Part shown: one piece after another, positions 569 to 26,873 of the stretch
How the letters are laid out: each line of letters starts with the position of its first letter
How positions within the stretch are numbered: the stretch's first letter is position 1
NCBI GenBank assembly: GCA_963665235.2
Contig: CAXXLX010000002.1
Location: 800,001-864,000 of the forward strand
Length of the DNA stretch: 64,000 bases
DNA from: Candidatus Poribacteria bacterium
GTDB lineage: Bacteria; Poribacteria; WGA-4E; WGA-3G
Direction of reading: 5' to 3'
Position numbers and translations under genes: made by a program
Notes under the pieces: model-generated
Seen by the model: only the letters and a program-made list of their open reading frames with translations
The model's database searches: none
Told to the model about the DNA's origin: nothing

Positions 569-670
569 TCTCCAAAAAAGATTTTGGGGCTATTATACCA
601 TATATCCACAATTTGTGTCAGTTAATTTGTAGGATATTAGGATATGCCAGAGACATTCAATCCGCTCATC

Positions 671-2266: not shown

Positions 2267-2424
2267 TGGAAACTGCCTTTGGACACTAAACTTTGGACGA
2301 AGTCACGGATAGCCTCATTTAGATATTATAGCAGATGTAGCGTTGCAAATGCAAGGAAAAAATAGAGAAGGTGGTAAATATTTTGTCAAAAATTGAACAG
2401 TTCTGCACTAAAAATAAATTTTGC

Positions 2425-2453
2425 TTGACAAATTCTGTGAAAATCTGTTTAAT
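2425..2453 (+). promoter_or_regulatory. Sigma-70-type promoter
   Basis: TTGACA-17 bp-TTTAAT upstream of the RidA-fabV genes. Confidence 0.5.
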
Positions 2454-2525
2454 AGTAGAGACAGGTACAAAAATGCTGCCTTTGCAGCACCTTAGAATTA
2501 ACCTACTTGGGAGATATTAAATTAC

Positions 2526-2987
2526 ATGAAAATAGAGAAACGACTTGAAGAACTAGGTGTGAAATTACCACCTCCGGCGGTCCCCGTGGCGAATTACGTC
2601 ACAACGGTGCAAACCGGAAATCTTGTCTTTACGTCTGGACACGGACCCGGCACAGGCGAAGGTAAAATCTATAAGAGTCAACTCGGTACAGATGCGACTA
2701 TTGAAGAGGGGTATGCCTCTGCGCGTCAGGTTGCAATCGAATTATTGAGCACGCTCCAACATGCCCTCGGCGATTTGGACCGGATTAAGCGGATTGTGAA
2801 GGTTGTCGGTTTCGTTAACTCGGCACCAGATTTCACGGACCAGCCGGCTGTCGTCAACGGTGCATCCGACTTTTTCGTTGAGGTATTCGGCGATAAGGGA
2901 AAACATGCACGTTCGGCAGTTGGCATGGTACAATTGCCCGGCGGCATTCCGGTTGAAATTGAGATGGTTGTTGAAATTGAGGAGTAG
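2526..2987 (+). CDS. RidA/YjgF/UK114 family protein
   Basis: VANYV...VFTSGHGP, VNGASD, GKHARSAVG, PVEIE motifs. Confidence 0.9.
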   Translation: MKIEKRLEELGVKLPPPAVPVANYVTTVQTGNLVFTSGHGPGTGEGKIYKSQLGTDATIEEGYASARQVAIELLSTLQHALGDLDRIKRIVKVVGFVNSAPDFTDQPAVVNGASDFFVEVFGDKGKHARSAVGMVQLPGGIPVEIEMVVEIEE

Positions 2988-2999
2988 ACTTTAAATACC

Positions 3000-13895: not shown

Positions 13896-16214
13896 CTACG
13901 TCGAAAGTGTATACGTCTTTCCTGCTGCCGTGTCGAACGTCACAACTGAATCCGATACGGCTGCTTTAACCGGTTGCTCCTCACATGCCACCGAAACGGT
14001 GCTCGATGTTCGGACAGTACAGTCTCTACCGAGTGCGGAACGGATTTTCGCCTCGGTGAGTTTTCCGTTTTCCCACGTCATATCCACTTCAAACCCGCCG
14101 CGGGCACGCAACCCTTTGACGTATCCTGTGTCCCATGCCTTCGGAAGGGCAGGCAGTAGGTTAATTTCACCTGCATGGCTCTGTAGCAACATTTCAGCGA
14201 TACCAGAGGTTCCACCGAAATTGCCATCAATCTGGAACGGTGGATGTGTATCAAAGAGGTTAGTCAGGGTACACTTGGCGAGAAGTGCTTGGAGATGGGT
14301 GTATGCTCCTTCAGCATCCTCAAACCTTGCGAAAAAGTTGATAAGCCATGCCCGACTCCATCCTGTCTGTCCACCGCCGTGTTGCAACCGATATTCCAGC
14401 GATTTTTTCGCTGCGGCTGCTAATTCTGGTGTGCCGCGCAAGGTAATTTGGCAACTCGGGTGGAGCCCATACATGTGCGACATGTGTCGATGCCCGGGTT
14501 CCGGTTCGTCGTAATCGAACACCCATTCCTGCAACCGTCCTGTCTTTTCGCTGATTTGGAGCGGGGCGAGCCGTTCGAGGGCGGAGGCCAACTCTGCCCG
14601 GAGGTCCGCATCTCCGCCGAGGATATCAATAGCAGCGATGCAATTGGTAAAAAGCTCGTGGATAATCTCCAAGTCCATCGTTGCAGCGTAGGTAAAAAGG
14701 GAACGGTTGCCATCAGGTTTCAGGAAACTGTTTTCAGGTGAGTGAGAGGGGTTCGTCACGAGTGTTCCTGCAAGCGGTGTGCCTTCCGGTGCCTCGACGA
14801 GAAAATCGAGGATAAAACGGGCTGCCCCCTTCATCAACGGATAGGCTTGTCTCTTCAGGTATTCCACATCTTCTCCGAAAAGGTAGTGTTCCCACACGTG
14901 TTCACATAACCATGCGGCCCCCATGGGCCAGACACCCCACACCCCATCCGCGGGTGTGGTAAACCCCCAGATATCGGTAAGATGATGGACGACCCATCCC
15001 TCAGCACCGTAATGAATTTTCGCTGTCCGATTTCCGGGTTCAACGAGCGATTCCATTAGGTCAAACAGCGGCGTATGGCACTCTGGCAGGTTACAAATTT
15101 CGGGCACCCAGTAGTTCATCTGGACATTGATATTGGTGTGGTAATCACTGTTCCAGGGGGCGTTCATGTGTTCGTTCCATACGCCTTGAAGATTAGCGGG
15201 GAGACATCCAGGGCGTGAGCTTCCCATCAATAGATAACGTCCGTATTGAAAGTAAAGAGCGACAAGCCCGGCATCTGACGCGCCCTCCTTGACAGCAGCT
15301 AAACGTTCGTCGGTTGGAAGATTTTCCGCTTCAGTTGAACCGAGATTTAAATCAACCCTTCTGAAAAGGGATTGATGTTCAGCGATGTGCTCTGTCCGAA
15401 TGTCCTGATAGGATTTGCCATCGACGGCTGACAGATACGTTTCGCAACGTTCGTGTGGATTGGCACTTGCATCTGTCTGGTTGATGTAGCTTGTCGCAGC
15501 GGCGATGAAGAGTGTCACAGCATCAGCATCGCTCACAGAGATGCCGTCGTTTTTCGCTTGCGAAGTGCCCCCTTCAACGTTCACCTGTAAATATGCTGCA
15601 AAACGTAGCACCCCATCATTGCCACACTGGCCGTCGAGACGTAGTAAATTGTTATCTATCGCTTCAACGGTGGCATCCTGTTCGCGTGTCATCGTTATAT
15701 CAAAATTGAGTTTTCCCGGTGGTTCGCTTTCAACCCTAACAACGATAAGATTGTCCACTGCTGTAGCAAAGACCTCTCTGCTGAAATTAAGCTCCCCTTG
15801 TTGGTAAGTTGTGTTTGCGATACCGGTATCCAAATCCAATTCTCGGCGATATGCTGTCACTTCAGCGTCGTTCGAAAAATCGAGGAACAGATTGCCTAGG
15901 GACTGGTAGGATTTGATCCGTTTCTCTATTCCGTGCAACATTTCGCTTGCGAGTTGGGTTGCCTCTTCGTTTTTATCGTCAAAGAGCAGTTGTCGCACCT
16001 TCGGGAGTGCTTCCAAAGCCTTTGGACTATTGTTATCATTATCGCCGATGCGAGGGCCGCCATCCCAAAGTGTTTCTTCGTTGAGTTGGATGCGTTCGCG
16101 TTCCACGCCGCCGAACACCATTGCGCCGAGCCGTCCGTTTCCGACAGGCAGCGCGTCTGTCCACGCCCCGGCTGGTTTGTTATACCATAAGGTAAATTTT
16201 TTATCATTTTTCAT
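13896..16214 (-). CDS. GH95 alpha-L-fucosidase
   Basis: [59 protein letters not shown]. Confidence 0.93.
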
Positions 16215-16278
16215 CAGTTAATGCCTCTCTTGTAATTACATTTATATCCACAAATGAATCAAAACAGGTTATGTAAGA

Positions 16279-17649
16279 TTAAGATTTAAAACGTACATCC
16301 CAAGCACATCGAAACCCGATATTTGCGGTAAACCTTGCTGAGTACTGAGAGAAGAGCGTGGTGAGAAAAGGCGAACCTCCATGGCGTGCAGCAATTTGAT
16401 TAGGTTTTGACGAAGTAAAATACGAACCACCTCGCAATACGCGATTATTTGTAATCTCCCAGAAGTCCGAAATTAATATGTCAAAATCCTCTTTCGAGTT
16501 TACACCCGCAATTGGATTCTGTAGCGGTGAATTTCCATAAAAAGCGATTTGATACGCATCAAGACACCACTCCCATACGTTTCCTACTATATCATGCAAA
16601 CCGTAATTGTTTGCTGGATATTTTCCGACAGATATAGTTTCACCAGCATTCTCACCACAATGCGCTTTGTCTGAATTCAAAGCGTCGCCCCATGGGTATT
16701 TTTGGCCTGTTAAGCCCCCCCGTGCTGCTTTTTCCCATTCCGCTTCTGACAGTAAACGTTTACCGCTCCATTTTGCATACGCCATCGCCGCATACCAACT
16801 GACATGAGTCACAGGATGGTCCCCTTTTCCAGCCGGAAAGTTGTTCCTATTCCAATGTTTTAGATAGTTTCCATCGTGGTATCTTCCAAGTCCAAGGATA
16901 GATAACCTCTTTTTTGCCTTATTCCACGCGTCCCGTTCCGATAGCTTCCGCCATTTGGGATTAGCCTCAATGAACATCTTATATTGTGCATTCGTCACCG
17001 GATATTTATCCACACAGAACGCATCAACGTAGACTGCATGCTCTCGATTTTCACGGGTATTCCACCATTCTTGGCTTCCCATTTGAAACTCGCCCGCTGG
17101 GATGAGCACCATATCTTCTGGGACTGAGACGCTTAAGGATGTTTGTTCGGAGGTGGAAGATTCCTCGGTTTCAGGTGTAGTCAATTCCTCTACCGAGATA
17201 GGCTCGGTCGGTTGTGGTATTTTAGTTTGTAGTGCTGCGATATGTTCCACCCGTTTTTGTGGGTCTTTCAACGTATCCCGTGCTTGATTTAGAACGGTTC
17301 GCCACTGTTCCTGCGTCCTACCGTCCGGACGCGGAAGTCCGCCCGCCTGCAACGAGGCACTATACTGCTTTTTATGTGCTTCATCAATGCGGGTCAAGAT
17401 GAAGGTTTCATCCCGATTTTCAAATTCATCTACCGAAAACCCAAGCACTTCAAAATAGTTTACACTTTCCCCCACAATTAGTCCTGAGGCTTTCAGAATC
17501 TCATCCGCTTCCGCTGCGGAGAGCCCAAACTGCTGCACCGCTTGCTGGAGAAGCCCGATGCGCTGTTCGTCGGTAATCGTTTTTGATAACGTTTTGAGTG
17601 TGTTGACAACTCTAATGAATTCGTCGTGGCTATCGGTATGTTGGTTCAT
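16279..17649 (-). CDS. Helical domain + J-like domain + FGE-sulfatase (CLec-fold) protein, paralogue 3
   Basis: NYFEVLGF...PRPDG...LNQARDTLKDPQKR; FGE motifs IPAGEFQMGS, VTNAQY, EAEWEKAARGG, GNVWEW, RVLRGGS, GFRC. Confidence 0.85.
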   Translation of the reverse strand: MNQHTDSHDEFIRVVNTLKTLSKTITDEQRIGLLQQAVQQFGLSAAEADEILKASGLIVGESVNYFEVLGFSVDEFENRDETFILTRIDEAHKKQYSASLQAGGLPRPDGRTQEQWRTVLNQARDTLKDPQKRVEHIAALQTKIPQPTEPISVEELTTPETEESSTSEQTSLSVSVPEDMVLIPAGEFQMGSQEWWNTRENREHAVYVDAFCVDKYPVTNAQYKMFIEANPKWRKLSERDAWNKAKKRLSILGLGRYHDGNYLKHWNRNNFPAGKGDHPVTHVSWYAAMAYAKWSGKRLLSEAEWEKAARGGLTGQKYPWGDALNSDKAHCGENAGETISVGKYPANNYGLHDIVGNVWEWCLDAYQIAFYGNSPLQNPIAGVNSKEDFDILISDFWEITNNRVLRGGSYFTSSKPNQIAARHGGSPFLTTLFSQYSARFTANIGFRCAWDVRFKS

Positions 17650-17692
17650 GTTTTCCGTTCTCTAAATTCTGTTTTTTTCGGGCATCTGCGGA

Positions 17693-18310
17693 TTACCATA
17701 GAGGGGATTCAGCTAGGCGAGACTGGTTAATAGTTGCGTTTAATTCGTAGCGTTCAGCAACTGACTCGACAAGCTCCAGTAACCATCGGTATGTTGGTTC
17801 ATGTTTTCCGTTCTCTAAATTCTGTTAGGTTTTTTCGCTCTCACTTCTCGCTCATGCAAAACTCCTTCGCTTGTGCAGATAGGGAGATAATGTGTCTACT
17901 TCAGGTATTTGATCGCCATCGTAGTCAAGATATTGAACCCTTCCGATATGAAATTGCTCGTTGGTTCCGAGACTTTTTACAAAAGACTCAAAGCGAGTTT
18001 TAATTGCAATACCTCCTTGGGTGCTAGAGTACAATTTCCACATCGCCTCTGATTCGTGTGTGCTTTCGTGCCAACAACTAATCAACGTAAAACGCGGTAA
18101 TTGCTGCATCACGGGGGCATACATATTGCTTTCTTCATCACGGAACGAATCTATGTTTCTCCTAGGTAATGAGCCCTCAAAAGGGTCCCCCAATTTGTCC
18201 GCCCTTGCGAAAAATAGGGCACCATTTTCCAAAATTGAGACAAATTTTGTGAAATCCATGTACCTCCACAAAATTGCGTCTGTGTGAGGGAGGTTGTGAA
18301 CACAAAACAT
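17693..18310 (-). pseudogene. DUF2971-like protein, disrupted
   Basis: LWRYMDF...DPFEG...ISCWH...AMWKLY...HKRRSF, then a frameshift at (H)EREVR. The middle is replaced by a copy of the downstream gene start; the tail WLLELVESVAERY...SPLW* survives at 17693-17785. Confidence 0.7.
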
Positions 18311-18515
18311 AAATAAAAATTCCGGTACTAGTTGACGTGCGGGTTTTGCCCAATCTGAGCATTTGTTAGTGTAACAGATTCTATGCAATAAGACTTCTAC
18401 TTCGTGCCCTGCGGCATATAAGGTTGTCGCTCGAGACTTCTTATCCTTGTCAATTTCTAAGATCTACTCAGGACCAGGTGAGATGTTTACGCGTTCCGCT
18501 ACGTGCACAGGCAGT

Positions 18516-18947
18516 TCACTTAGATGATACATTTCGCTTCCGTCCAGTTGGAACTGTTGCCCAATTAGCGTGTCCCCTATAGACCATGACCGCATTAATG
18601 AAGAAATGGGTTGGGTAACGCCAGACATAGGCGACGACTCTTTCATCAGAAATCTCAATCGGCAGGAGCGTCACCCGTTTGCCCTCTATGAGCTCCTTCA
18701 AATATCTAGCGGCTTTTTCGTCTTCGGGGGTGCCTTTTTCCGGGGGGATTATATTCGCTAAACGCACCTTTTCGAACCCCCTTAGTTTTTCCATCCGTTG
18801 TATAGGAGTTTCGGGCAGAAGTGGAAGCATTTTAATGTGTTCAAGAAAACTGCGGTTTTCTTGACTGGAAAATCGCATAACAGTTTCGGTAGGACTCACC
18901 TCAAAAGTATCGCCATCAATGACTTTTTCTACATTATACACATACAT
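18516..18947 (-). CDS. Thermonuclease (SNase-like) family protein, degenerate
   Basis: VEKVIDGDTF, VRLANIIPPE, RVVAYVW, INAVMVYRGHA. Confidence 0.7.
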   Translation of the reverse strand: MYVYNVEKVIDGDTFEVSPTETVMRFSSQENRSFLEHIKMLPLLPETPIQRMEKLRGFEKVRLANIIPPEKGTPEDEKAARYLKELIEGKRVTLLPIEISDERVVAYVWRYPTHFFINAVMVYRGHANWATVPTGRKRNVSSK

Positions 18948-19066
18948 TTTTTTCTCCTCCAGTGTGTTTTAGCTGATAACTGAACAATCGAATTGTAGCA
19001 CAAACCTGCAAAAAAGGCAAACAGAAAAGAGGGGTATAAAATTTTATCAGGAGTTCGGACAGCATC

Positions 19067-20380
19067 TTAAGAGGTGACTGCCCTGACACATCGGAAGCCA
19101 TAGCTGTAATATGTGAAATTGGGGGGAGCCCAACCGCAATAGGCGACTTGCGCGGCACGCTCGCTACTTGCCCAAGACCCCCCACGCAGTACACGAAACG
19201 TTGCAATATGCAAAAAATTGGTTGTGATTTCATCAATGCTGTCAACCATTAAACCGGGGTGTCGACGTGGGGTATTACCATCATGTTCATCAAGACACCA
19301 TTCCCACACATTACCCGCCATATCATACACGCCATAGTCGTTAGGTGGATACTTGCCAACGGGGGTTGTTCTTCCGAGCTGCATGCCGTAATTCGCAAGG
19401 TTTATATCAATTCCATCGCCCCATGGATATATTTTCCCTACTAATCCGCCACGTGCCGCTTTTTCCCATTCCGCTTCAGTTGGCAACCGTTTATTTGTCC
19501 ATTGTGCGTAAGCCATGGCGGCATACCAACTCACATTTACAACCGGATAATCTGCTTTCCCTCTAGGCGGAGTATTGCCATTCCAAGTATTTAAGTAGTT
19601 CCCATCGTGGTAATCTTTAACGATTGTATTTTTCTGCCACTGAGGATTAGCCTCTATAAACGCCTTATATTGTGCATTGGTCACCGGATATTTATCAATC
19701 AAAAATGCATCCATGAAAATTGTTTGTGCGGGCATTTCGCTCGTATTTTCCGCTTTGTCCTGCTCACCCATCTGAAACTCACCGGCAGGAATGAACACCA
19801 TACTATCAGGGACATCGAGATTGGGTGGAACTGATACCGGGTCGGTATTTGAAAGGGGTAATACGGAGATAGTTTCGTGTGTACTTTCTGGCGTTGGCTC
19901 TGCGTTCTCAAGCTCGATTTCGGGGGAAGGCAGGTCAGTCACGGATATCTCTAATGTATCTGCGTCGCTCAGGAATGTCTCCATATATTCTCGCCGCTTT
20001 TGTGTATCTACTAAAGTATCCCGCGCTTGATTTAAAACAGTTCGCCACTGTTCTTCTGTTTTACCATCGGGACGCACGCGCGCACCGGCACCCAACGATG
20101 CCCTATAGCACTTATCGTGAGCAGACTTAACAACGCTTACGATTGCTTGCTCATCTAAACCTTGGATATTTTCTATTGAAAGGTCCAGTACCTCAAAATA
20201 GTTTATCTCCTCCCCGACTACCAAACCGAGAGACTTCAGAATCTCTGTGGCTTCTTCAACAGCCAGCTCGTAATTCTGGACTGCCTGTCTCAGCAACCCA
20301 CGCCGTTGAATATCTGTAATAGTCGGTGATACATTTTTGAAGGTATTAAGGAGTTCAATAAATTCATCACGTTTGGACAT
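19067..20380 (-). CDS. Helical domain + J-like domain + FGE-sulfatase protein, paralogue 2
   Basis: NYFEVLDL...VRPDG...LNQARDTLVDTQKR; full FGE-fold motifs. Confidence 0.85.
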   Translation of the reverse strand: MSKRDEFIELLNTFKNVSPTITDIQRRGLLRQAVQNYELAVEEATEILKSLGLVVGEEINYFEVLDLSIENIQGLDEQAIVSVVKSAHDKCYRASLGAGARVRPDGKTEEQWRTVLNQARDTLVDTQKRREYMETFLSDADTLEISVTDLPSPEIELENAEPTPESTHETISVLPLSNTDPVSVPPNLDVPDSMVFIPAGEFQMGEQDKAENTSEMPAQTIFMDAFLIDKYPVTNAQYKAFIEANPQWQKNTIVKDYHDGNYLNTWNGNTPPRGKADYPVVNVSWYAAMAYAQWTNKRLPTEAEWEKAARGGLVGKIYPWGDGIDINLANYGMQLGRTTPVGKYPPNDYGVYDMAGNVWEWCLDEHDGNTPRRHPGLMVDSIDEITTNFLHIATFRVLRGGSWASSERAAQVAYCGWAPPNFTYYSYGFRCVRAVTS

Positions 20381-20414
20381 ATCTCATTTCACTTTAAAAA
20401 ATGTGACAAAACCT

Positions 20415-21701
20415 TTAAGATTGGATATCCTTTACACACCGAAAGCCGAAGGTAGGGAGCGTGTCCGTTGGATTACCTTTGAACCGGTAGGCACACCGCA
20501 CACCTGCGGAATCAATTCCCCATGAACCGCCACGCAACACGCGAGTGCTTTTAACGCTTTCGAAGTTTCGCGTTATCCACTCCACACTGTCTATGGCAGA
20601 GAAGGGATTTTGCGGTGAGGAATTCACATAGAAATAGGCATGATACGAATCCAGGCACCACTCCCACACGTTTCCACTTATGTCGTAGAGACCGTATCTG
20701 TTAGCAGGATAATGACCGACTGGTGTGGTATCACCAACATAATAGAAGTAGTTTGCATCGTCAGCACTTATTGAATCTCCCCACGGATATTTCTTGCCTG
20801 TCAAACCGCCCCGTGCGGCCTTCTCCCATTCCGCCTCTGTCGGTAAACGTTTCCCTTTCCACTGTGCGTACGCCATCGCTGCATACCAACTCACATTTAC
20901 AACCGGATGCTCACCTTTTCCACTCGGGTAGGTTTCATCCTCCCAATGCTTCAGGTAGCCTCCATCGTGATAGGCACTAGGAATATGGTCTTTGAACCAC
21001 CGCCGTTTGTGCCACTGTGGGTTAGCATCGACGAATTCCTTGAATTGTGTATTGGTTACCAAGTATTTGTCCATGAAAAATGCGTCGAGAGAAACGGTGT
21101 GAACCGGATGTTCGTCTTCGTTTGCTGCCGGGTCATCACTGCCCATTTGAAAATTGCCCGCTGGGATGAACGCCATGTCTGGCGGTGCGTCGATATTGGG
21201 TGTAACTATCTGATGATTTAATTCCTCAGTCTCAGTTAGCTCAGGCGGAGGCGATGGGTTTTCTTCCGGGAGTGCTTCTGCTTCAGTCTGCTGGAACATA
21301 GCGGCGTGTTCGTGCCTTTTCTGGGGGGCAATCAACGTATCCCGTGCTTGATTTAGAACGGTTCGCCACTGTTCCTCTGTTCTGCCATCGGCGCGGGGAC
21401 GACCCCCCGCCTTTAATGAAGCACTGTATAGGTTTTTGTGCGCTGCTGCCACGCGACTCATGACAGTCGTGTCGTTTAAGTTTTGAATCTCAGCGATTGA
21501 GAATCCCAATACCTCAAAATAGTTCACACGTTCACCGATACCTATTCCCGAGGCGTTGAAAATGTCAGTTGCTTCTTCAACAGTGAGACCGTGCTGCTGA
21601 ACGCCTAATCGGAGAAACCCTTTGCGTTGTTCGGCGGTAATTGTCGGTGAGGCGGTTTTAAGCGCCTTAAGAAATGCTATGAATTCCTCGCGTTTAGACA
21701 T
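20415..21701 (-). CDS. Helical domain + J-like domain + FGE-sulfatase protein, paralogue 1
   Basis: NYFEVLGF...PRADG...LNQARDTLIAPQKR; full FGE-fold motifs; starts 15 bp after the hsp70 stop. Confidence 0.85.
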   Translation of the reverse strand: MSKREEFIAFLKALKTASPTITAEQRKGFLRLGVQQHGLTVEEATDIFNASGIGIGERVNYFEVLGFSIAEIQNLNDTTVMSRVAAAHKNLYSASLKAGGRPRADGRTEEQWRTVLNQARDTLIAPQKRHEHAAMFQQTEAEALPEENPSPPPELTETEELNHQIVTPNIDAPPDMAFIPAGNFQMGSDDPAANEDEHPVHTVSLDAFFMDKYLVTNTQFKEFVDANPQWHKRRWFKDHIPSAYHDGGYLKHWEDETYPSGKGEHPVVNVSWYAAMAYAQWKGKRLPTEAEWEKAARGGLTGKKYPWGDSISADDANYFYYVGDTTPVGHYPANRYGLYDISGNVWEWCLDSYHAYFYVNSSPQNPFSAIDSVEWITRNFESVKSTRVLRGGSWGIDSAGVRCAYRFKGNPTDTLPTFGFRCVKDIQS

Positions 21702-21716
21702 AGGTTAAACCTTAAA

Positions 21717-23312
21717 CTATTCAACAACAAGGTCTTGTAGCTCCGTTTTTGCCTGTGCAACCTCTTCTTCATCGAGCGTAGGTCTCTCGATAATGGAAAA
21801 GATATCGTAAACCGCCGTGGGACCATCCTCGTCAAGGGATTTTGCTGTCACCTCAAGATTCTGATCCAGATTATATTTGTAGTTTACTTCAATCGGAGAC
21901 CCTTGCGGCAATCCATCGGGCAGTTCAAGGGTACATTCCCCCAATTTATAGTCATCAAATAGCTCAATTTCGCTTTTGTGCCTATCCTGTTCAAGCCCCT
22001 GCACCACTTCGATTAACGCCGAAGTCTGATTCTCATCTACTGTCAAAAACTTATCCGATCTTTCACACGGTATGGCTGTCATTTTGGGAATCATGACATG
22101 GATAATATGTTCGCGCTGTGGATTGAGCACGACGAGCCCGAGGTTGTGTGTAGCTCCATCTGTCACCGTTACCTTCGGTGCACCGTCCGGACCGAGAAAT
22201 CTATCAATAACAGCGTCAGGCATGTCTACTGTTTCGGGATTTCCCTCCGTGAGTTGGCGGAGCGTTCCCTGAATTGCTGCGCCAATCGCGACGACCTCGT
22301 CAGGATTGACTTCGTGTGGATTAATCTCTTTACCGCTGATTGCGGCGATCATTTCCTGGACCATGGGCATCCGAGTTGAGCCGCCCACCAATAGGATTTT
22401 GTCAACATCCGCCCAGGCCATTTCTGCCTCAGATAGGACAACGTCACACAAGGAGCGACACCTTTCGAGCAGGTCTGCGGTAAGTTCTGTAAATTTTTCG
22501 CCCGTTAATTCTACACGGGTCGTCTTTCCGTTGTATCCACAGACAATTAAGGCGCGCTGCCGCAAGGACAAAGATTCTTTTGCCCCGATTGCATCCATTT
22601 GAAGGTCCTGATATGTGTGAAGATCAGCTAGCGGATTTTCGCCGTGTTCAATTTCAAACATTTCAGCGACGTGTGTGATGATTTTATCGTCCCAATCCTT
22701 GCCGCCCAACCTATGGTCCCCGTTTGTCGCAAGCATCTGTATTTCCGATTCAGAAACCTTCATGATGGTTACGTCAAATGTTCCGCCGCCGAGGTCGAAC
22801 ACGAAGACATTTTGGTCGCTGCCCAATTGGTCAATGCCGTATGCTAGGGCGGCAGCGGTGGGCTCGTTTAGGACTTGCAGGACGTTCAATCCTGCGATTT
22901 TTCCAGCGTTGCGGGTTGCTTCCCTTTCAGCGTCATGAAAATAGGCGGGAACGGTGATGACCGCATCGGTAACCTCTTCATTCAGATAGGTTTCAGCATC
23001 CTGCTTGAGTTTTGTTAAGATAAGGGCGGAGAGTTCTTCAGGTGAATAATCCTTGTCGTTGAATGAGCGAAAAAATTCCTCTTTGGATTTACCCATCTCG
23101 CGTTTGACAAATTCCACAATCTGTTCGGGAACAGCTCTCGCGTTCTGTTTCGCAATCTTCCCAACCGTTATAAGAGTGTCCTCAAACATAATTACCGACG
23201 GGGTAATCCGCTCATTTTCTATATTGGGAATAATTTCCGCTTGTCCATGTTCATTGATGTGCGCTATCGCTGAAAACGTTGTCCCGAGATCGATTCCTAC
23301 AACCTTACCCAT
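21717..23312 (-). CDS. Specialised Hsp70 family protein, lid truncated
   Basis: [38 protein letters not shown]; 531 aa, ending just after the substrate-binding beta domain. Confidence 0.92.
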   Translation of the reverse strand: MGKVVGIDLGTTFSAIAHINEHGQAEIIPNIENERITPSVIMFEDTLITVGKIAKQNARAVPEQIVEFVKREMGKSKEEFFRSFNDKDYSPEELSALILTKLKQDAETYLNEEVTDAVITVPAYFHDAEREATRNAGKIAGLNVLQVLNEPTAAALAYGIDQLGSDQNVFVFDLGGGTFDVTIMKVSESEIQMLATNGDHRLGGKDWDDKIITHVAEMFEIEHGENPLADLHTYQDLQMDAIGAKESLSLRQRALIVCGYNGKTTRVELTGEKFTELTADLLERCRSLCDVVLSEAEMAWADVDKILLVGGSTRMPMVQEMIAAISGKEINPHEVNPDEVVAIGAAIQGTLRQLTEGNPETVDMPDAVIDRFLGPDGAPKVTVTDGATHNLGLVVLNPQREHIIHVMIPKMTAIPCERSDKFLTVDENQTSALIEVVQGLEQDRHKSEIELFDDYKLGECTLELPDGLPQGSPIEVNYKYNLDQNLEVTAKSLDEDGPTAVYDIFSIIERPTLDEEEVAQAKTELQDLVVE

Positions 23313-24000
23313 CCGTGTTACCTCCTTTCTCCGCTAAAGGCGGTTGCTCTGTAGCAGGCGTATAACGAAAGATAGTGACCTCCTCCGGTCGGAACACTTT
23401 ATCTCGCCAGTTGAACCCGATTTTATGAACTTCCGCAATTTTGCCATCCTGCTCCGGATCATCGGACGAGATGACCTTCCGTGTTTTGTGCAATTGTCGG
23501 TCAAGTGTTTGTAGCGTATCCTTATAAGGGGTCACGTCCATACGGTATAGCACTTCTTCAAGTTCAAAACGGAAGTTCTCCAAATTCTTTTGATAACGTG
23601 CCAGCTCATCCGGAAGACTATTCGCCTCGTTATCAACTATAATCTCATTGAGTTGTGTTTCAAGTAAAACAAAACTATCGTAAAGCTGGAGCAGGTTATG
23701 GATAATCGGTTTGTGAAGCACTTCAAGCAGGAATTGCTCCTTATACTCTTTCATCTCAGCGTACATTTTGTCGAACATCTGTGTCTGATTCTGGTTCCGC
23801 GCAATTTCCTTTTCAAATAAAGCTTGCAACGTTGTTAACTGTTGATTTAGCTCCGTGAGCGCAGTTGATTGAAGTAATTCAGCATCGGTTTGCCGCCGTG
23901 TATCAGCAGCGGCCCTATTTTCTTGACGGCGTAAAGCTGCGTCCGTTTCCACACCGGGCTTTGGTCTGGTATCCTCTTTTCCATTCACGTCGTTAGACAA
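23305..24000 (-). CDS. grpE: GrpE-like nucleotide exchange factor
   Basis: Long coiled coil, LLQLYDSF, then LH...IAEVHKIGF...VFRPEEV beta domain; TTG start after AGGAGG; 8-bp overlap with hsp70. Confidence 0.8.
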   Translation of the reverse strand: MSNDVNGKEDTRPKPGVETDAALRRQENRAAADTRRQTDAELLQSTALTELNQQLTTLQALFEKEIARNQNQTQMFDKMYAEMKEYKEQFLLEVLHKPIIHNLLQLYDSFVLLETQLNEIIVDNEANSLPDELARYQKNLENFRFELEEVLYRMDVTPYKDTLQTLDRQLHKTRKVISSDDPEQDGKIAEVHKIGFNWRDKVFRPEEVTIFRYTPATEQPPLAEKGGNTDG

Positions 24001-24219
24001 AATTGAATCCTCCTTGCATAGACAAAAGTGTTTTACTGCCAATAGAATATCATAAACAGAAAAAAAAGTCACGTTTAAAATTCGATTCGGGGAGTGTCCA
24101 TTTTGTCAAAGGAATAGAGAGGAAGTTTGAAGGTTGGAAGGATAGCTCACCGCTTAAATGGGACGTTTGTAGGCGCGCTTACAAAGAACGCCTACAAACG
24201 ATAGAGGGGTGCCTATTTT

Positions 24220-24409
24220 AACGTGAGTTTGGAAAAAGTTTTCCCTTAGTATTCGGGCAACCAGCTCGCTCCGTAGGGACGATATATTTATAGAAAAAGA
24301 CGTTTCCATCCTAATTCTTAGTCCCAGTATTCGGGCAAGCAGCCCGCTCTTTAAGGACGATATGTTTATAGGGGTTAGGCAAACCGACATTTATTATCAA
24401 ACTCACGTT
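24220..24409. mobile_element. MITE class E (AACGTGAGTTTG ends)
   Basis: AACGTGAGTTTG...CAAACTCACGTT with ATTTT duplicated; homologues at 28665-28902 and 52022-52268. Confidence 0.7.
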
Positions 24410-26873
24410 ATTTTAGAATTAACATACGACGCGTCGCTGAAAAGGAGCCCGCCTGAATCTGATAGAAATAGATACCGGAAGCGACATGTTCACTTAAGTT
24501 GTTACTGCCATCCCAATAGGCAGCCCGTGAACGGTTGCGATAATATCCTGCCCCCTTATGCCCTAGGTCAAGCGAGCGAACAACGGTGCCAGCGACATCG
24601 TAAATGGTAACCCTGACTGTCGCCGCCTCACTGAGTTGGTAGGGTATCCAAGTTTCCGGATTAAATGGATTCGGATAATTTTGTAGAAGACGCGGTGTTT
24701 CAGGGTGAGGCGACATTTCAAGCGTAACAGAGATGAAGCCTGTTTCAAGCATATCCGGCGTAACAGTGTATACTTGCGAGTCCCCTATAATATTACCCTC
24801 TGAATCAGCAATCCGAATTTCGAGAATATCACCGGCTTGAACGACAGCGTTCTGCATCAAATCACCGAAGGCAGCAGCGAAATACCCACGCCGCACAACA
24901 TCAATAACGGTGGTATGGGTCCGCTTGTTTGTTGCCCTGACAGTGTAACCTTCGGCAGTGTAGGGAAGCTTTCCGCTGACGACAAATGCCCACGTGTTCC
25001 CTGAACTGTTTACAGCGGGTGCAGCGAAGGCAGTCGGGGCATTTCCCCAAGCGTTTCCTCTGAACACAACAGTTTGGGCGGTTGGGACGTTAACAATATA
25101 TCCTTGTCCGCCCATAATTTCAAACCCATCGTCCGGTGCGTCTGCTGTAAACCCTTCAAATCTTTGATGCTGCGTATTGAACCGGATAAGCACTGTCGCA
25201 GCCAATTCTGTCATCAAAGTTCTAGCGGTGTAGGGTAAGTTCGGCTTAAGCGGAAGCGCAATCATATTCAAACCTTTTGCGAGCTCAACCGAAAAGGCGG
25301 GCTGTTCAAGAATAGCGAAGATAGTCGTAGTTCCGCTAACTTCGTTCCCCGTAACGAGGAGTGGATATTCTATAGGGCTGTCCGCTGCGTTGATGTACAG
25401 AATACCCTCCGGCCCGTGATCGCCGGCTGTGCTCTCTTCAGCATTGCCAGTGAAATCCCGATTGTTAATATACTGTACGAATTGGGGATGGGACGGGTCG
25501 GATATATCGTAAACGACAATTCCGCCGACGCGTTCGAACCCGATGAAAGCGTAAGTGTGTGCTCCAATCTGTCCGACCGCTATCCCTTCAGGCTCAGGGC
25601 CTTTATCGTCACTTCGCGTGTCGAAAGAATCGTTTTTGTCGTTGTTTGCATTGAAATCGTTCGGAATTAACGTGGCGGTGAGCTGTTCAAAGGCATCACC
25701 GCTATCAAAGATGAGTTGGCCATCTGCGCTCCAAATGGAGAAGGACCGCGCGCCATAATTGTAAATTGCTTCATGGAGACCATCACCATCCGCGTCTCCG
25801 GAGGCTGTTGTGGTTTTCAGTCGGCCTAGATTCTCAGATTCTTGGAGTTCTTCAGCATCAGTAAAAACCGTCGGATCCAATTCTAAATCGGCCACGCGAA
25901 CTTCCTCACTAAAACAGTCGTAGTCGCGAGCATCCCCTTCGTTTGCTGTAATCAGGAATGTTTCCCCGCCGGTCGTAAACGCTACGATGGCATCAGGTTG
26001 ATACATTCCACTGACCGGCCAGTTAGCGATATTAATTCCATCATCTTTGTCGCTTGCATCGAGACCACTGCCCTCCGCATAATTTTTGTATCCGAGCGGA
26101 AAGATGTTTGTCACCGTCGCGCTTGCTATGTTTAACACAGCAATTGCATTGTTTTCTTGAAGGACAACCCACGCTGTGCTAGAATCGGGAGCTACAGCGA
26201 TGTACTCCGGTTCGAGGTCCTGTGCAACAGTTGCCCCAGGGCCAAAGATGCGAATATCCGGGTGGATATTTTCGTGAGTGAAATGCCTAAAGTCGGCTGT
26301 ACGAACGTCGTTTTGGGTGAGATTCGCCACGCCATTTTTGAGTTCGATAACGCTTATTGAACCCTCCGGATCGCCGGCTTCCCCCGGAACACAATATTCG
26401 TCCGGTTCACCTTCATTTGCGACAAGAAGATAACGTCCATTAGGCGTGAAGATTAGCATATCCGGCAATGGGCCTACTGTCACCGCATTTAGAAATTCAC
26501 CGTCCGGGTTGAAAAAGACAGCTTTACCTGGGGCCTGTTTCAGCTCGGCTTCTATTGCGACCGCTACGACCCCATTATGCACAGCAACACTGTTAGCACT
26601 AGCACCATAAGCGGCAATGTCGATTTGAAAAAGGCGAACTGGCGTAGAGGGGGTGTTAATGTCCAGAACGTCGATATTACCGGAGTCGGCGTTCACTACA
26701 TAAAGCCGCTGGGTTTTGACATCATGTGCAACAATTTCTGCGGCGGATTCGTCAAAAATTCCACTTTGATATGTCCCGAGAGGTTGAATATCAAGTTGTG
26801 AAATAGCTGCTGAATTAAAGATAAATAATAGAAGTAAGCAGACCATTGACTTACTGCAAACTATCTTTTGCAT
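24408..26873 (-). CDS. Secreted choice-of-anchor-I / alkaline-phosphatase-associated beta-propeller protein with FlgD-Ig/T9SS-like tail
   Basis: Signal peptide; ANEGEP, DLEPEYI, YQPDAI, ANEGDAR, RSDDKGPEPEG, NEVSGTT; tail LLQNYPNPFNPETWIPYQL. Confidence 0.82.
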   Translation of the reverse strand: MQKIVCSKSMVCLLLLFIFNSAAISQLDIQPLGTYQSGIFDESAAEIVAHDVKTQRLYVVNADSGNIDVLDINTPSTPVRLFQIDIAAYGASANSVAVHNGVVAVAIEAELKQAPGKAVFFNPDGEFLNAVTVGPLPDMLIFTPNGRYLLVANEGEPDEYCVPGEAGDPEGSISVIELKNGVANLTQNDVRTADFRHFTHENIHPDIRIFGPGATVAQDLEPEYIAVAPDSSTAWVVLQENNAIAVLNIASATVTNIFPLGYKNYAEGSGLDASDKDDGINIANWPVSGMYQPDAIVAFTTGGETFLITANEGDARDYDCFSEEVRVADLELDPTVFTDAEELQESENLGRLKTTTASGDADGDGLHEAIYNYGARSFSIWSADGQLIFDSGDAFEQLTATLIPNDFNANNDKNDSFDTRSDDKGPEPEGIAVGQIGAHTYAFIGFERVGGIVVYDISDPSHPQFVQYINNRDFTGNAEESTAGDHGPEGILYINAADSPIEYPLLVTGNEVSGTTTIFAILEQPAFSVELAKGLNMIALPLKPNLPYTARTLMTELAATVLIRFNTQHQRFEGFTADAPDDGFEIMGGQGYIVNVPTAQTVVFRGNAWGNAPTAFAAPAVNSSGNTWAFVVSGKLPYTAEGYTVRATNKRTHTTVIDVVRRGYFAAAFGDLMQNAVVQAGDILEIRIADSEGNIIGDSQVYTVTPDMLETGFISVTLEMSPHPETPRLLQNYPNPFNPETWIPYQLSEAATVRVTIYDVAGTVVRSLDLGHKGAGYYRNRSRAAYWDGSNNLSEHVASGIYFYQIQAGSFSATRRMLILK

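What the first reader, a model, noticed from the sequence alone, without database searches (positions are those of the whole stretch)
16279..24000. Candidate undescribed system: dedicated GrpE and lid-less Hsp70 served by three J-like/lectin-fold adaptor proteins
Seen: a co-oriented, tightly spaced run of grpE-like, hsp70 (8-bp overlap) and two paralogues, with a third paralogue after two inserted genes. Each paralogue has a ~55-aa helical N-domain, then a J-domain-shaped unit (NYFEVL / helix II / loop / helix III LNQARDTL / QKR), a Pro/acidic linker and an FGE-sulfatase domain. None has a signal peptide, and a normal dnaK exists separately at 7227. Known: J-domains deliver clients to Hsp70, and the FGE fold is the CLec ligand-binding scaffold also found in DGR targets and conflict systems. 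Inference: this is a self-contained cytoplasmic chaperone machine in which interchangeable CLec receptors select targets (host, phage or damaged proteins) for a private Hsp70, possibly for surveillance or defence rather than housekeeping folding.
Basis: partly seen in the sequence, partly recalled or inferred. Interest (0 to 1): 0.88.

Follow-up and report, generated by a model that had tools for sequence, protein, structure and literature searches.

The report
Private Hsp70 with J-like adaptor array
A sponge-symbiont bacterium carries, beside its normal chaperone genes, an optional second Hsp70 chaperone set whose helper proteins join an altered docking domain to interchangeable binding heads; I found no published description of it, and what it acts on is unknown.

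Summary
On the minus strand of a Candidatus Poribacteria window lie a GrpE-like gene, a lid-less but ATPase-competent Hsp70 (8-bp overlap) and three paralogous adaptors. Each adaptor has a 3-helix N-domain, a J-fold domain without HPD (invariant R-x-D-G loop), a disordered linker and an FGE-fold head lacking the catalytic Cys pair. An SNase-like and a DUF2971-like gene separate the third paralogue.

The link to Hsp70 is strong. The same 61 of 176 genomes of the phylum hold the adaptor module and the private Hsp70. 39 of 56 related loci show Hsp70 directly followed by adaptors (1-9 per locus). A complex model passes its controls (0.71 against 0.12), with the invariant loop as the contact.

The module also occurs on WD40, ankyrin, TPR and HEAT proteins and on a Zorya ZorD effector. 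It therefore looks like a portable Hsp70-docking tag.

The cassette is accessory (22 of 65 genomes in one genus). Its role is open: defence or surveillance is plausible but unproven. A sulfatase-helper reading was tested and weakened.

No paper describing it was found. The scan has noted the same kind of system before on other DNA (Poribacteria, Verrucomicrobia). Verdict: a new variant of the Hsp70/J/NEF triad.

The parts
23305..24072 (-). GrpE-like nucleotide-exchange factor (255 aa from a GTG start; orthologues 215-265 aa)
   Evidence: Pfam GrpE 45.5 bits against cut-off 25.8. NCBIfam GrpE equivalogs reach only 19.8 bits against 176. Orthologues lie upstream of the private Hsp70 in 27 of 56 loci.
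21717..23312 (-). Private lid-less Hsp70 (531 aa): NBD, altered and lengthened interdomain linker, SBD-beta, and a stub of lid helix A
   Evidence: Pfam HSP70 400 bits, profile positions 1-490 of 599. DnaK equivalog 420 bits against cut-off 648. 41% identical to the window's DnaK in the alignment (39% over the blastp match). Residues at the alignment positions that I recall as the catalytic ones of DnaK (D8, K70, E150, D173, T178) are invariant. The lid is missing and the segment aligned to DnaK's LLLDV reads VTVTD after an insertion of about 15 residues.
20415..21701 (-). Adaptor 1 (428 aa): 3-helix N-domain (aa 1-55, 21537-21701), J-like domain (aa 56-135, 21297-21536), linker, non-catalytic FGE-fold head (aa 173-428, 20418-21185)
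21378..21407 (-). Helix II-III loop GGRPRADGRT (aa 99-108) of adaptor 1, which stands where HPD would be. G99, R103 and D105 are invariant; G100 and G106 are nearly invariant.
   Evidence: Alignment of 69 sequences. Lowest entropy of the module over 190 adaptors. Residues 93, 96-104 and 106 are the confident contacts in the complex model.
19067..20380 (-). Adaptor 2 (437 aa), same architecture
18516..18947 (-). SNase-like small protein (143 aa) inserted in the array; whether it belongs to the system is uncertain
   Evidence: Pfam SNase 22.3 bits against cut-off 21. Relatives lie inside adaptor arrays in 9 of 56 loci.
17852..18388 (-). DUF2971-like protein (178 aa at most; the start is uncertain) inserted in the array; whether it belongs to the system is uncertain
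   Evidence: PADLOC PDC-S31, E 8.9e-15. Pfam DUF2971 only E 0.052. Relatives lie in 6 of 56 loci, 5 of them with the SNase-like gene.
16279..17649 (-). Adaptor 3 (456 aa), same architecture
   Evidence: (weak HscB match at aa 115-159, E 0.0011).

Best explanation
This is an accessory, self-contained Hsp70 machine. It has its own GrpE-type exchange factor, an ATPase-competent Hsp70 without a lid, and a family of adaptor proteins.

Each adaptor carries a constant docking module: a 3-helix domain plus a J-fold domain whose HPD is replaced by an invariant P-R-x-D-G loop. To this it joins a variable, non-enzymatic binding head. In the window the head is an FGE/C-type-lectin fold; elsewhere it is WD40, ankyrin, TPR or HEAT.

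Proposed working (inferred):
1. The head holds a specific ligand.
2. The loop docks the adaptor on the nucleotide-binding domain of the private Hsp70, not of DnaK.
3. The Hsp70, cycled by its own GrpE, remodels, holds or releases whatever the adaptor brings.

Shown: the architecture, the J fold, the loss of FGE catalysis, the genomic and phyletic coupling, and the modularity of the heads. Modelled only: the contact. Inferred: ATPase control, the clients and the cellular role.

Because the cassette is optional among close relatives, I take the role to be a niche or conflict function rather than housekeeping folding.
For: 1. Coupling.
- In 39 of 56 related loci the private Hsp70 gene is followed within 600 bp by an adaptor gene. 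43 of 56 loci hold the Hsp70 within 10 kb.
- The adaptor module (E<=1e-10) and the private Hsp70 (E<=1e-150) occur in exactly the same 61 of 176 genomes of the phylum. The handle lists are identical; by genus the counts are 34/40 and 22/65.

2. J fold.
- The profile against PDB sequences gives 4 hits, all J-type co-chaperones, but weak (E 0.21-1.3).
- The AF2 model has pLDDT 83.
- The 15 best of 48,161 chains by VIA-align are J-domains or J-domain proteins, with Z 5.9-8.2 over residues about 57-140. The Foldseek top rows are J-domains at probability 0.99, though with E>=0.16.
- The distant member P0117 hits Pfam DnaJ at E 1.2e-4, below the cut-off.

3. Docking.
- Complex model score 0.71 (runs 0.73, 0.65, 0.71); best of 3 controls 0.12.
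- That mark was reached by 58 of 80 solved complexes and 2 of 110 mismatched pairs.
- The runs agree in at least 76% of contacts, and the partner's pLDDT is at least 79.
- The calibration holds only roughly here: my own alignments were used and ATP rode along.
- The contacts are adaptor residues 93, 96-104 and 106, the most conserved stretch of the module.
- Of the 20 Hsp70 contact residues, 14 are invariant in 15 private Hsp70s. 11 are invariant and differ from the canonical DnaK, against 79 of 355 over the NBD (hypergeometric P 0.001).

4. Modularity.
- Only 131 of 1.84 billion representative proteins match the module at E<=1e-3.
- Of 20 scanned: FGE in 9, ANK 3, HEAT 2, TPR 2, PEGA/PG-binding 2 (one also carries TPR), an Hsp70 NBD fusion 1, no family 2.
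- The own genome has 4 more copies, with TPR, WD40 or unassigned C-termini.

5. Non-catalytic heads.
- The Cys pair of tcFGE aligns to I and to a gap.
- 0 of 172 adaptors with a recognisable RGGS motif have two Cys in the next 14 residues. 36 of 208 adaptors had no such motif and were not counted.
- Variability concentrates in surface segments 231-260, 311-325, 351-385 and 394-418, while the core 271-300 is nearly invariant.

6. The Hsp70 keeps residues at the alignment positions that I recall as the ATPase positions of DnaK.
Against: - There is no HPD, so the one feature known to be needed for J-domain action is missing. The domain could be a mere scaffold.
- Every sequence and fold match to J-domains is individually weak (E 0.16-1.3; Z at most 8.2, in a range the tool calls common for helical models).
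- The complex model is a prediction. Its confident contacts are not at the DnaJ site of DnaK, so either the mode is new or the pose is wrong.
- The private Hsp70s are 72-88% identical, so 'invariant' interface residues carry limited weight.
- The genomes are kin, so the perfect co-occurrence reflects fewer independent gains and losses than 61.
- 16 of the 43 loci with the Hsp70 have no detectable GrpE-like gene.
- No ligand, no expression data and no phenotype exist.
Confidence: 0.65

Rival explanations
1. It is specifically a conflict (anti-phage or anti-invader) system. The diversified FGE-fold and repeat heads are sensors of foreign proteins. The private Hsp70 with its GrpE is the ATP-dependent switch. 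Nucleases such as the SNase-like protein, or tagged effectors such as ZorD, are the output.
For: - The cassette is accessory and patchy among close relatives (22 of 65 and 34 of 40 genomes in two genera).
- The paralogues form tandem arrays of 1-9 with variable heads.
- In locus L040 a complete ZorA-ZorB-ZorC-ZorD operon has the module fused to the C-terminus of ZorD (ZorD model E 0, residues 51-1123; module at 1133-1265). Two further genomes show the module in the same frame behind a 1271-1279-aa frame with one stop.
- The DUF2971-like neighbour matches the candidate defence family PDC-S31 (E 8.9e-15).
- Distant versions of the cassette carry an Hsp70-vWA fusion (L064, L065, L066), and in L064 a caspase-CARDB gene. 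These domains are typical of the conflict systems of Kaur et al. 2020, which also use FGS heads (PMC7159879, passages read).
Against: - No core protein matches a PADLOC model at E<=0.001; the weak rows are E 0.004-0.007.
- The window has no obvious effector besides a marginal SNase match (22.3 bits against 21).
- The SNase and DUF2971 genes are present in only 9 and 6 of 56 loci.
- PDC families are candidates, not proven systems.
- The ZorD fusion is one locus.
- No diversity-generating template repeat lies near the heads.
Confidence: 0.3
2. It is a sulfatase helper. The FGE-like heads grasp the CxPxR motif of unfolded sulfatases, of which Poribacteria have many, and hand them to the private Hsp70 for holding, maturation or folding.
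For: - An orthologous cytoplasmic Cys-type sulfatase (77-92% identical between full-length copies; one truncated copy 63%) lies upstream on the same strand in 38 of the 43 loci that hold the private Hsp70.
- In L043, L049 and L052 its ORF runs into the Hsp70 ORF. In L043, L044 and L052 it stands directly upstream where grpE stands elsewhere. The 8-bp overlap is my inference from the printed starts.
- The nearest solved relatives of the heads are true FGEs (E 3e-35).
- The own genome has 41 sulfatase-like ORFs, 26 of them with CxP[SA]R.
Against: - The sulfatase orthologue is in 126 of 176 genomes, the cassette in 61. In one genus the counts are 64 of 65 against 22 of 65. So the sulfatase does not need the cassette, and the adjacency looks like a shared insertion site.
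- In this genome the sulfatase is on another contig, at C1:1839477-1840811.
- The catalytic Cys pair and Arg276 of tcFGE are absent.
- The segment of tcFGE that holds the Pro- and Arg-binding residues Trp84, Phe86, Trp108 and Trp109 (PMC6676471, passages) was left unaligned and is about 25 residues shorter in the adaptors (inference).
- The same docking module sits on WD40, ANK, TPR, HEAT and ZorD proteins.
Confidence: 0.08
3. The adaptors are cargo, not co-chaperones. The N-terminal module is a tag by which the private Hsp70 holds, stores or hands over the lectin-like and eukaryote-like repeat proteins themselves, for example for export towards the sponge host.
For: - The tag sits on protein classes (ANK, WD40, TPR, HEAT) that are known, from my recall of the sponge-symbiont literature, as candidate host-interaction factors.
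- A long disordered Pro/acidic linker follows the tag (entropy 3.1 bits). It could itself be the Hsp70 substrate.
- In the second subfamily, several members have hydrophobic stretches after the J-like domain that look like transmembrane segments (by eye, no predictor run). In some of them PG-binding, PEGA or FGE parts follow.
Against: - No secretion genes lie next to the cassette in the window.
- The window adaptors have no signal peptide or membrane segment.
- The model places the contact on the NBD, not in the substrate-binding domain.
Confidence: 0.08
4. The J-like domain is a decayed relic without any action on Hsp70, and the gene order is inherited synteny only.
For: HPD is missing, and there is no Pfam DnaJ hit for the three window proteins at E<=0.1.
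Against: - The loop and helix III are the most conserved part of 190 adaptors.
- Only 131 representative proteins match the module, and the P-R-x-D-G signature is shared with a second subfamily.
- The module and the Hsp70 co-occur in the same 61 genomes through repeated presence and absence within genera.
- The coupling persists in rearranged contexts (L064, L065, L066).
Confidence: 0.03

Closest known systems
DnaK-DnaJ-GrpE triad and class C J-domain proteins (a J-domain plus a targeting domain)
   Same: Three roles are encoded together: an Hsp70 with intact ATPase residues, a GrpE-fold factor, and partners with a four-helix J fold joined to a target-binding domain. The logic of 'many adaptors, one Hsp70' is that of class C J-proteins.
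   Different: - HPD is absent; there is an invariant P-R-x-D-G loop instead.
- An extra 3-helix N-domain is present.
- The Hsp70 lacks the lid and has a changed linker. It scores below the DnaK and HscA equivalog cut-offs.
- The modelled contact lies on NBD lobes IB/IIB rather than at the DnaJ site.
- The cassette is accessory, not universal.
HscA-HscB and HscC-DjlB/DjlC, the two other prokaryotic Hsp70 types (Mayer 2021, PMC8215388, passages read)
   Same: It is a specialised Hsp70 paralogue with its own co-evolved J-type partners. The Hsp70 is shorter than DnaK, with a deletion in NBD lobe I (private Hsp70: about 18 residues). HscB and Jac1 are the best sequence matches of the J-like module.
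   Different: - According to that review, HscA and HscC lack the GrpE signature and work without a NEF. This system has its own GrpE-like gene.
- HscB has HPD, and DjlB/DjlC have HPE (PMC10410713, passage). This module has neither.
- Those systems do not have tandem arrays of up to 9 adaptors.
- I did not compare sequences with HscC directly.
NTP-dependent conflict systems of Kaur, Burroughs, Iyer and Aravind 2020 (PMC7159879, passages read)
   Same: FGS (FGE-fold) heads are used as non-enzymatic binding modules, always C-terminal to other domains. One theme there (GAP1-N2 GTPase systems) links HSP70, GrpE and a DnaJ-fused component. vWA and caspase neighbours occur in the distant versions found here (L064-L066).
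   Different: - Pfam assigns no GAP1-type GTPase, MoxR or vWA gene to any of the seven genes of the window's unit.
- The J-like domain there is described as DnaJ, fused to FNIII repeats.
- The passages I read do not describe grpE-hsp70-(J-like-FGS)n. Their source-data tables were not available to me and might list it.
Non-catalytic FGE-fold proteins: pFGE/SUMF2 (PDB 1y4j) and the DGR variable protein TvpA (PDB 2y3c)
   Same: The heads match both by sequence (E 4.7e-29 and 1.4e-13). Like both, they lack the catalytic Cys pair. The most variable segment follows the RGGS motif, where I recall that the DGR variable region lies.
   Different: - The heads are cytoplasmic and fused to an Hsp70-docking module.
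- No template repeat was found in 15900-24600; the paralogues are only 66-75% identical in DNA.
HPD-less J-like proteins such as Tim16/Pam16 (PDB 2guz, Z 5.4, rank 24)
   Same: They have a J fold without HPD and still act within an Hsp70 machine. As I recall, Tim16/Pam16 regulates rather than stimulates.
   Different: Tim16 acts through a J/J-like heterodimer with Tim14. No HPD-bearing partner is encoded in this cassette.

Membership tests
J-domain proteins (Pfam PF00226 DnaJ) | Four-helix J fold with an antiparallel helix II/III hairpin | tested here: met
   AF2 model pLDDT 83. The 15 best VIA-align chains are J-domains or J-domain proteins, Z 5.9-8.2 over residues about 57-140. Foldseek top rows are J-domains at probability 0.99 with E>=0.16.
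J-domain proteins (Pfam PF00226 DnaJ) | His-Pro-Asp motif in the helix II-III loop | tested here: not met
   The loop reads GGRPRxDGRT. R103 and D105 are invariant in 69 sequences and no HPD is present. The second subfamily has VPRxDG.
J-domain proteins (Pfam PF00226 DnaJ) | Score above the Pfam gathering threshold | tested here: not met
   No DnaJ hit at E<=0.1 for the three window proteins. The distant member P0117 scores 22.5 bits against a cut-off of 27.8.
J-domain proteins (Pfam PF00226 DnaJ) | Stimulates the ATPase of its Hsp70 | not testable with these tools
   Only a complex model is available: 0.71 against a best control of 0.12.
DnaK / HscA (NCBIfam NF001413, TIGR02350, TIGR01991) | Score above the equivalog cut-off | tested here: not met
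   420 bits against 648; 407 against 822; 329 against 708. The window's real DnaK scores 1030 against 648.
Hsp70 superfamily (Pfam PF00012) | NBD plus SBD-beta, with conserved ATP-binding and hydrolysis residues | tested here: met
   400 bits. D8, K70, E150, D173 and T178 are invariant in 15 private Hsp70s and identical in DnaK. That these are the catalytic positions is my recall.
Hsp70 superfamily (Pfam PF00012) | Alpha-helical lid (SBD-alpha) and C-terminal tail | tested here: not met
   The profile is matched only to position 490 of 599. The alignment ends within lid helix A, and about 110 residues of DnaK have no counterpart.
GrpE (Pfam PF01025) | Score above the Pfam threshold over the whole domain | tested here: met
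   45.5 bits against 25.8, profile positions 8-163 of 165. The NCBIfam GrpE equivalogs are not met: 19.8 against 176.
Formylglycine-generating enzyme | FGE-sulfatase fold (PF03781) | tested here: met
   197-222 bits. Best solved relatives are tcFGE and human FGE, E about 1e-35 to 1e-34.
Formylglycine-generating enzyme | Copper-binding Cys pair (Cys269/Cys274 of tcFGE; PMC6676471) | tested here: not met
   The pair aligns to I and to a gap in adaptor 1. 0 of 172 adaptors have two Cys in the 14 residues after RGGS; 36 of 208 had no motif and were not counted.
Formylglycine-generating enzyme | CxPxR-binding groove (Trp84, Phe86, Trp108/109, Ser290 of tcFGE) | tested here: inconclusive
   HMMER left tcFGE residues 75-129 unaligned, and the adaptor segment there is about 25 residues shorter. 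No structural superposition was made.
DGR variable proteins | A template repeat nearly identical to the 3' variable region, plus a reverse transcriptase | tested here: not met
   No such repeat in 15900-24600; the only repeats are the paralogues at 66-75% identity and two short intergenic repeats. A genome-wide search for a reverse transcriptase was not made.
Known or candidate anti-phage systems (PADLOC-DB 2.0) | Core proteins match a system model | tested here: not met
   GrpE-like, Hsp70 and the adaptors give no match better than E 0.004. Only the DUF2971-like neighbour matches, to PDC-S31 at E 8.9e-15.
GAP1-N2 GTPase systems with HSP70/GrpE/DnaJ (Kaur et al. 2020) | GAP1 GTPase and a FNIII-repeat component next to HSP70 and GrpE | tested here: not met
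   Pfam finds no GTPase or FNIII domain in the seven genes of the unit or in its flanks.

The most novel reading that the evidence does not exclude
This would be a fourth kind of prokaryotic Hsp70 system that serves as the hub of an innate surveillance network. A repertoire of diversified lectin-fold and repeat receptors, and even a Zorya effector, would plug into one private Hsp70 through an HPD-less J-like tag. The tag would dock on the nucleotide cleft (lobes IB/IIB) and gate nucleotide exchange rather than hydrolysis. Binding of a foreign (phage or host) protein would then be turned into an ATP-dependent switch.
Probability: 0.22. Interest if true: 0.9.

Novelty: new variant of a known kind. 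Interest (0 to 1): 0.72.

Why it matters
- Textbook accounts hold that prokaryotes have three Hsp70 types (DnaK, HscA, HscC; Mayer 2021) and that a J-domain needs HPD. Large censuses of J-proteins discard HPD-less sequences (PMC10410713, methods passage), so this family is invisible to them.
- Here is a natural, conserved Hsp70 set with its own exchange factor and a docking domain that has rewritten the 'essential' motif. Perfect phyletic coupling shows that the parts still depend on each other.
- It offers a direct test of how much of the J-domain mechanism is dispensable.
- It gives a first functional handle on many 'FGE-sulfatase', WD40, ankyrin and TPR proteins of sponge symbionts that are usually read as sulfatase maturases or host-mimicry factors.
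- Through the ZorD fusion and the vWA/caspase neighbours, it suggests a possible link between Hsp70 machines and prokaryotic immunity.

Tried and rejected
- **Sulfatase-helper reading.** The striking upstream sulfatase (38 of 43 loci) proved to be a core gene present in 126 of 176 genomes, whether or not they hold the cassette. It is kept only as a weak rival.
- **DGR diversification.** No template-like repeat lies near the heads.
- **Known defence system.** PADLOC gives nothing for the core proteins.
- **Expression.** No RNA holder is listed among the 5 runs that hold the stretch.
- **Wider gene-neighbourhood survey of the second J-like subfamily.** The range outside this phylum therefore rests on L064, on unnamed representative proteins, on Atlas neighbour clusters and on unchecked earlier notes.
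- **Atlas search with the module alone.** Best score 0.83, below the level the tool treats as more than a lead.
- **The N-terminal 3-helix domain.** It has only unspecific fold matches: ENT, RecX, EMSY and others at Z about 5.
- **Promoter and terminator scan.** 19 promoter-like sites against 12.2 +/- 3.6 expected; no terminator-like site on the coding strand. This is too weak to define the transcription unit.
- **Literature searches that found no description:** 'Hsp70 + FGE-sulfatase + GrpE', 0 papers; formylglycine/Hsp70/conflict systems/J domain; Poribacteria + Hsp70, 15 papers, none relevant by title or abstract; Poribacteria + formylglycine, 1 unrelated paper; J-like domain/HPD/GrpE/operon; Hsp70/anti-phage/DnaJ/FGE; 'J-domain proteins in bacteria'; Hsp70/vWA/GrpE/caspase.
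- **Not seen.** Barriot et al. 2020 (J Mol Biol), known to me only from citations in PMC8215388, is not held. The supplementary tables of Kaur et al. 2020 and of PMC10410713 were closed. Any of these could list this architecture.

Full report
**What is there**

The window comes from a Candidatus Poribacteria genome: the record titles of the 56 related loci name this phylum. The own assembly has 5.3 Mb in 4 contigs. On the minus strand the ORFs are:

- a GrpE-like gene, 23305-24072;
- an Hsp70 gene, 21717-23312, overlapping the former by 8 bp;
- two paralogous genes, 20415-21701 and 19067-20380, after gaps of 15 and 34 bp;
- a small SNase-like gene, 18516-18947;
- a DUF2971-like gene, 17852-18388;
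- a third paralogue, 16279-17649.

Pfam confirms GrpE (45.5 bits, cut-off 25.8), HSP70 (400 bits) and an FGE-sulfatase domain in each paralogue (197-222 bits). The paralogues are 54-55% identical.

The flanks are unrelated: a GH95 glycosidase downstream, a secreted 'choice-of-anchor I' protein upstream, and a TnpB-like gene beyond it. The housekeeping DnaK is at 7227-9155 (1030 bits against the 648-bit DnaK cut-off).

**The Hsp70 and its GrpE**

- The private Hsp70 fails the DnaK and HscA equivalog cut-offs (420 against 648, 329 against 708).
- It is 41% identical to the window's DnaK in the alignment (39% over the blastp match).
- In an alignment of 15 orthologues with that DnaK it keeps residues at the positions that I recall as the nucleotide-binding and catalytic ones of DnaK (D8, K70, E150, D173, T178).
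- It lacks about 18 residues of NBD lobe I.
- The segment aligned to DnaK's LLLDV reads VTVTD and follows an insertion of about 15 residues.
- It ends inside lid helix A, about 110 residues short of DnaK.

So it is lid-less but looks like a working ATPase.

**The adaptors**

The first 150 residues, folded with 69 diverse homologues, give a confident model (pLDDT 83). A three-helix bundle (residues 3-51) is followed by helix II (77-98), a ten-residue loop (99-108), helix III (109-124) and helix IV (126-142).

Evidence for a J fold:
- A profile of the module against all PDB sequences finds only four chains, all J-type co-chaperones (Jac1 twice, HscB, a trypanosome DnaJ-like protein), at weak E-values of 0.21-1.3.
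- A Foldseek-independent comparison with 48,161 chains ranks J-domains or J-domain proteins in places 1-15 (Z 5.9-8.2, residues about 57-140).
- Foldseek's top rows are J-domains too (probability 0.99, but E>=0.16).

Each line is weak on its own. Together, and with the DnaJ sub-threshold hit of a distant member (P0117, E 1.2e-4), they make the J fold the clear best reading.

There is no HPD. Instead the loop carries invariant G99, R103 and D105 (GGRPRxDGRT). A second subfamily shares the signature as VPRxDG.

The FGE heads match true FGEs best (E about 1e-35). But the copper-binding Cys pair (Cys269/Cys274 of tcFGE; PMC6676471, passages) aligns to Ile and to a gap. None of 172 adaptors with a recognisable RGGS motif has two cysteines in the following 14 residues; 36 of 208 had no motif and were left out. 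The heads are binding modules, not enzymes.

Over 190 full-length adaptors, the module's loop and helix III and the structural core of the head are the most conserved parts. The linker and four surface segments of the head vary most.

**Is the module tied to this Hsp70?**

Four independent kinds of evidence say yes.

1. *Gene order.* Of 56 related loci, 43 hold the private Hsp70 within 10 kb. In 39 it is directly followed by an adaptor gene. The arrays hold 1-9 adaptor genes, median 4.
2. *Phyletic pattern.* Among 176 genomes of the phylum, the module and the private Hsp70 are each found in 61, and these are the same 61 genomes. Both are present or both absent within genera (34/40, 22/65, 2/3). 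The genomes are kin, so the number of independent events is smaller than 61. Still, not one genome has one part without the other.
3. *A complex model.* The score is 0.71 (three runs: 0.73, 0.65, 0.71), and the best of three controls is 0.12. That mark was reached by 58 of 80 solved complexes and 2 of 110 mismatched pairs. The runs share at least 76% of contacts, and the partner's pLDDT is at least 79. The calibration is only roughly applicable, because I used my own alignments and ATP rode along.
   - The confident contacts on the adaptor are residues 93, 96-104 and 106, that is, the end of helix II and the invariant loop.
   - On the Hsp70 they are 63, 66-68, 80-83 and 205-234.
   - By alignment these correspond to DnaK positions 63-68, 99-102 and 223-252 of the window's DnaK.
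   - From my recall of the DnaK subdomain boundaries these are lobes IB and IIB, the flanks of the nucleotide cleft where GrpE and other exchange factors bind. They are not the lobe IA/IIA-linker site used by DnaJ in PDB 5nro.
   - Because the pose is not the solved one, a pass 'from memory' is less likely. But the pose itself may be wrong.
   - Eleven of the 20 contact residues are invariant in the private Hsp70s and different in DnaK, against 79 of 355 in the NBD (P 0.001).
4. *A fusion.* One representative protein (P0045, 536 aa) joins an Hsp70 NBD to the module. It is a single case and could be an artefact.

**A portable tag**

An exhaustive profile search of 1.84 billion representative proteins finds only 131 matches. 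This is a small, distinct family, not a fringe of DnaJ.

Twenty representatives carried these C-terminal parts:
- FGE heads: 9
- ankyrin repeats: 3
- HEAT repeats: 2
- TPR: 2
- PEGA/peptidoglycan-binding parts: 2 (one also has TPR)
- an Hsp70 NBD: 1
- no known family: 2

The own genome has four more copies elsewhere, with TPR, WD40 or unassigned C-termini. Neighbouring array genes in other MAGs carry WD40 and ankyrin heads.

In locus L040 the module is fused to the C-terminus of ZorD within a complete ZorA-B-C-D operon.

In three loci outside the sponge-associated family (L064 from a metagenome; G029 and G007) the core is Hsp70-vWA, GrpE-like, lid-less Hsp70 (71-75% identical to the window's) and one J-like adaptor. 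The adaptor has HEAT repeats in L065; in L066 the HEAT repeats are in the gene that overlaps it by 4 bp; in L064 no family is assigned. In L064 there is also a caspase-CARDB gene. The window's version thus looks derived: the vWA-Hsp70 was lost and the adaptor array expanded.

**What it does**

The cassette is optional among close relatives, so it is not housekeeping.

I tested the obvious idea that FGE-like heads serve sulfatases. An orthologous cytoplasmic sulfatase lies just upstream in 38 of the 43 loci that hold the Hsp70. However:
- that sulfatase is present in 126 of 176 genomes regardless of the cassette (64 of 65 against 22 of 65 in one genus);
- it lies on another contig in this genome;
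- the substrate-groove segment of FGE is not conserved in the heads.

The adjacency is best read as a shared insertion site.

A conflict or surveillance role fits several observations: the accessory distribution, the tandem diversification, the ZorD fusion, the PDC-S31-like neighbour and the vWA/caspase company. But no core protein matches a known defence model, and there is no clear effector in the window.

I therefore commit to the mechanism, at 0.65: a private Hsp70 machine recruited by loop-docking adaptors to targets chosen by their heads. I give the defence role about 0.3.

**Novelty**

- The reviews and censuses I could read recognise three prokaryotic Hsp70 types (PMC8215388, passages) and exclude HPD-less sequences (PMC10410713, passage).
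- Kaur et al. 2020 describe FGS heads and an HSP70-GrpE-DnaJ theme in GTPase systems, but not this arrangement in the passages read.
- Eight full-text searches found no description.
- Supplements, and Barriot et al. 2020, were not available to me.
- The scan itself has noted the same kind of system before on other DNA: two other Poribacteria windows and several Verrucomicrobia triads.
- In keeping with this, the nearest Atlas clusters of the Hsp70 are short Hsp70s (524-575 aa) of Verrucomicrobiota, Planctomycetota and Cyanobacteriota (score 0.98; a lead without alignment).

I class it as a new variant of a known kind.

Noticed in passing
L002-L055 (e.g. L030:2970-4247, L043:3052-4344); own genome C1:1839477-1840811: A cytoplasmic Cys-type sulfatase (CxPSR motif, no signal peptide) lies upstream of the cassette in 38 of the 43 loci that hold the private Hsp70. 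In some loci it overlaps the Hsp70 start. It is a core gene (126 of 176 genomes), so the site looks like a preferred insertion point for the cassette.
   Followed up: yes
L040:2365-10414: A complete type I Zorya operon (ZorA, ZorB, ZorC, ZorD) whose ZorD carries the 3-helix plus J-like module at its C-terminus. In G100 and G094 the module follows a 1271-1279-aa frame with one stop codon. A PDC-S11-like gene sits just upstream (L040:1378-2358).
   Followed up: partly
L064:5015-7096, L065:16237-17901, L066:10625-12892: Hsp70-vWA fusion proteins are encoded upstream of the GrpE-like gene in the three distant versions of the cassette. L064 also has a caspase-CARDB protein (625-3516) and two membrane-anchored FGE proteins.
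   Followed up: partly
window 17632-17673 and 17785-17826: An exact 42-nt direct repeat duplicates the first six codons and the 24 nt upstream of the third adaptor gene, 153 bp further upstream. It may be a recombination scar from the insertion of the SNase/DUF2971 pair.
   Followed up: no
window 24248-24293 and 24326-24371: A 46-nt imperfect direct repeat (87% identical) lies in the 336-bp intergenic region upstream of the GrpE-like gene. It could be a regulatory element.
   Followed up: no
window 27083-28285: A TnpB / IS605 OrfB-like gene (Cas12f1-like TNB domain) lies two genes upstream of the cassette. This fits a local rearrangement that separated the cassette from the sulfatase.
   Followed up: no
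own genome (26 ORFs, e.g. C1:3107635-3108714, C1:118665-119501): The genome has 26 FGE-domain ORFs. Most have lipoprotein-type or signal-type N-termini. By eye, none of the 21 with a recognisable motif has the Cys pair. Yet there are 41 sulfatase-like ORFs, 26 with CxP[SA]R. The enzyme that makes formylglycine here is therefore not an FGE of the canonical type (an anaerobic-type maturase was not searched for).
   Followed up: partly
own genome C1:2542913-2546425: A 1170-aa ORF with a distant Hsp70-like region (27-28% identity to both Hsp70s of the window).
   Followed up: no
window 50202-51367 and 53596-54761: A two-gene unit (208-aa and 162-aa ORFs) appears twice in tandem on the minus strand, about 3.4 kb apart.
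   Followed up: no
L026-L041 and L043-L054 types: 16 of the 43 loci with the private Hsp70 have no detectable GrpE-like gene. An ankyrin-type gene (L034, L041) or the sulfatase itself (L043, L044, L052) stands directly upstream instead. Nine genomes hold two private Hsp70 copies.
   Followed up: partly
P0045 (536 aa, unnamed representative protein): An Hsp70 NBD (residues 30-381) is fused to the adaptor module (residues 403-534) without an SBD. This is a single case and may be a deletion or a gene-calling artefact.
   Followed up: no
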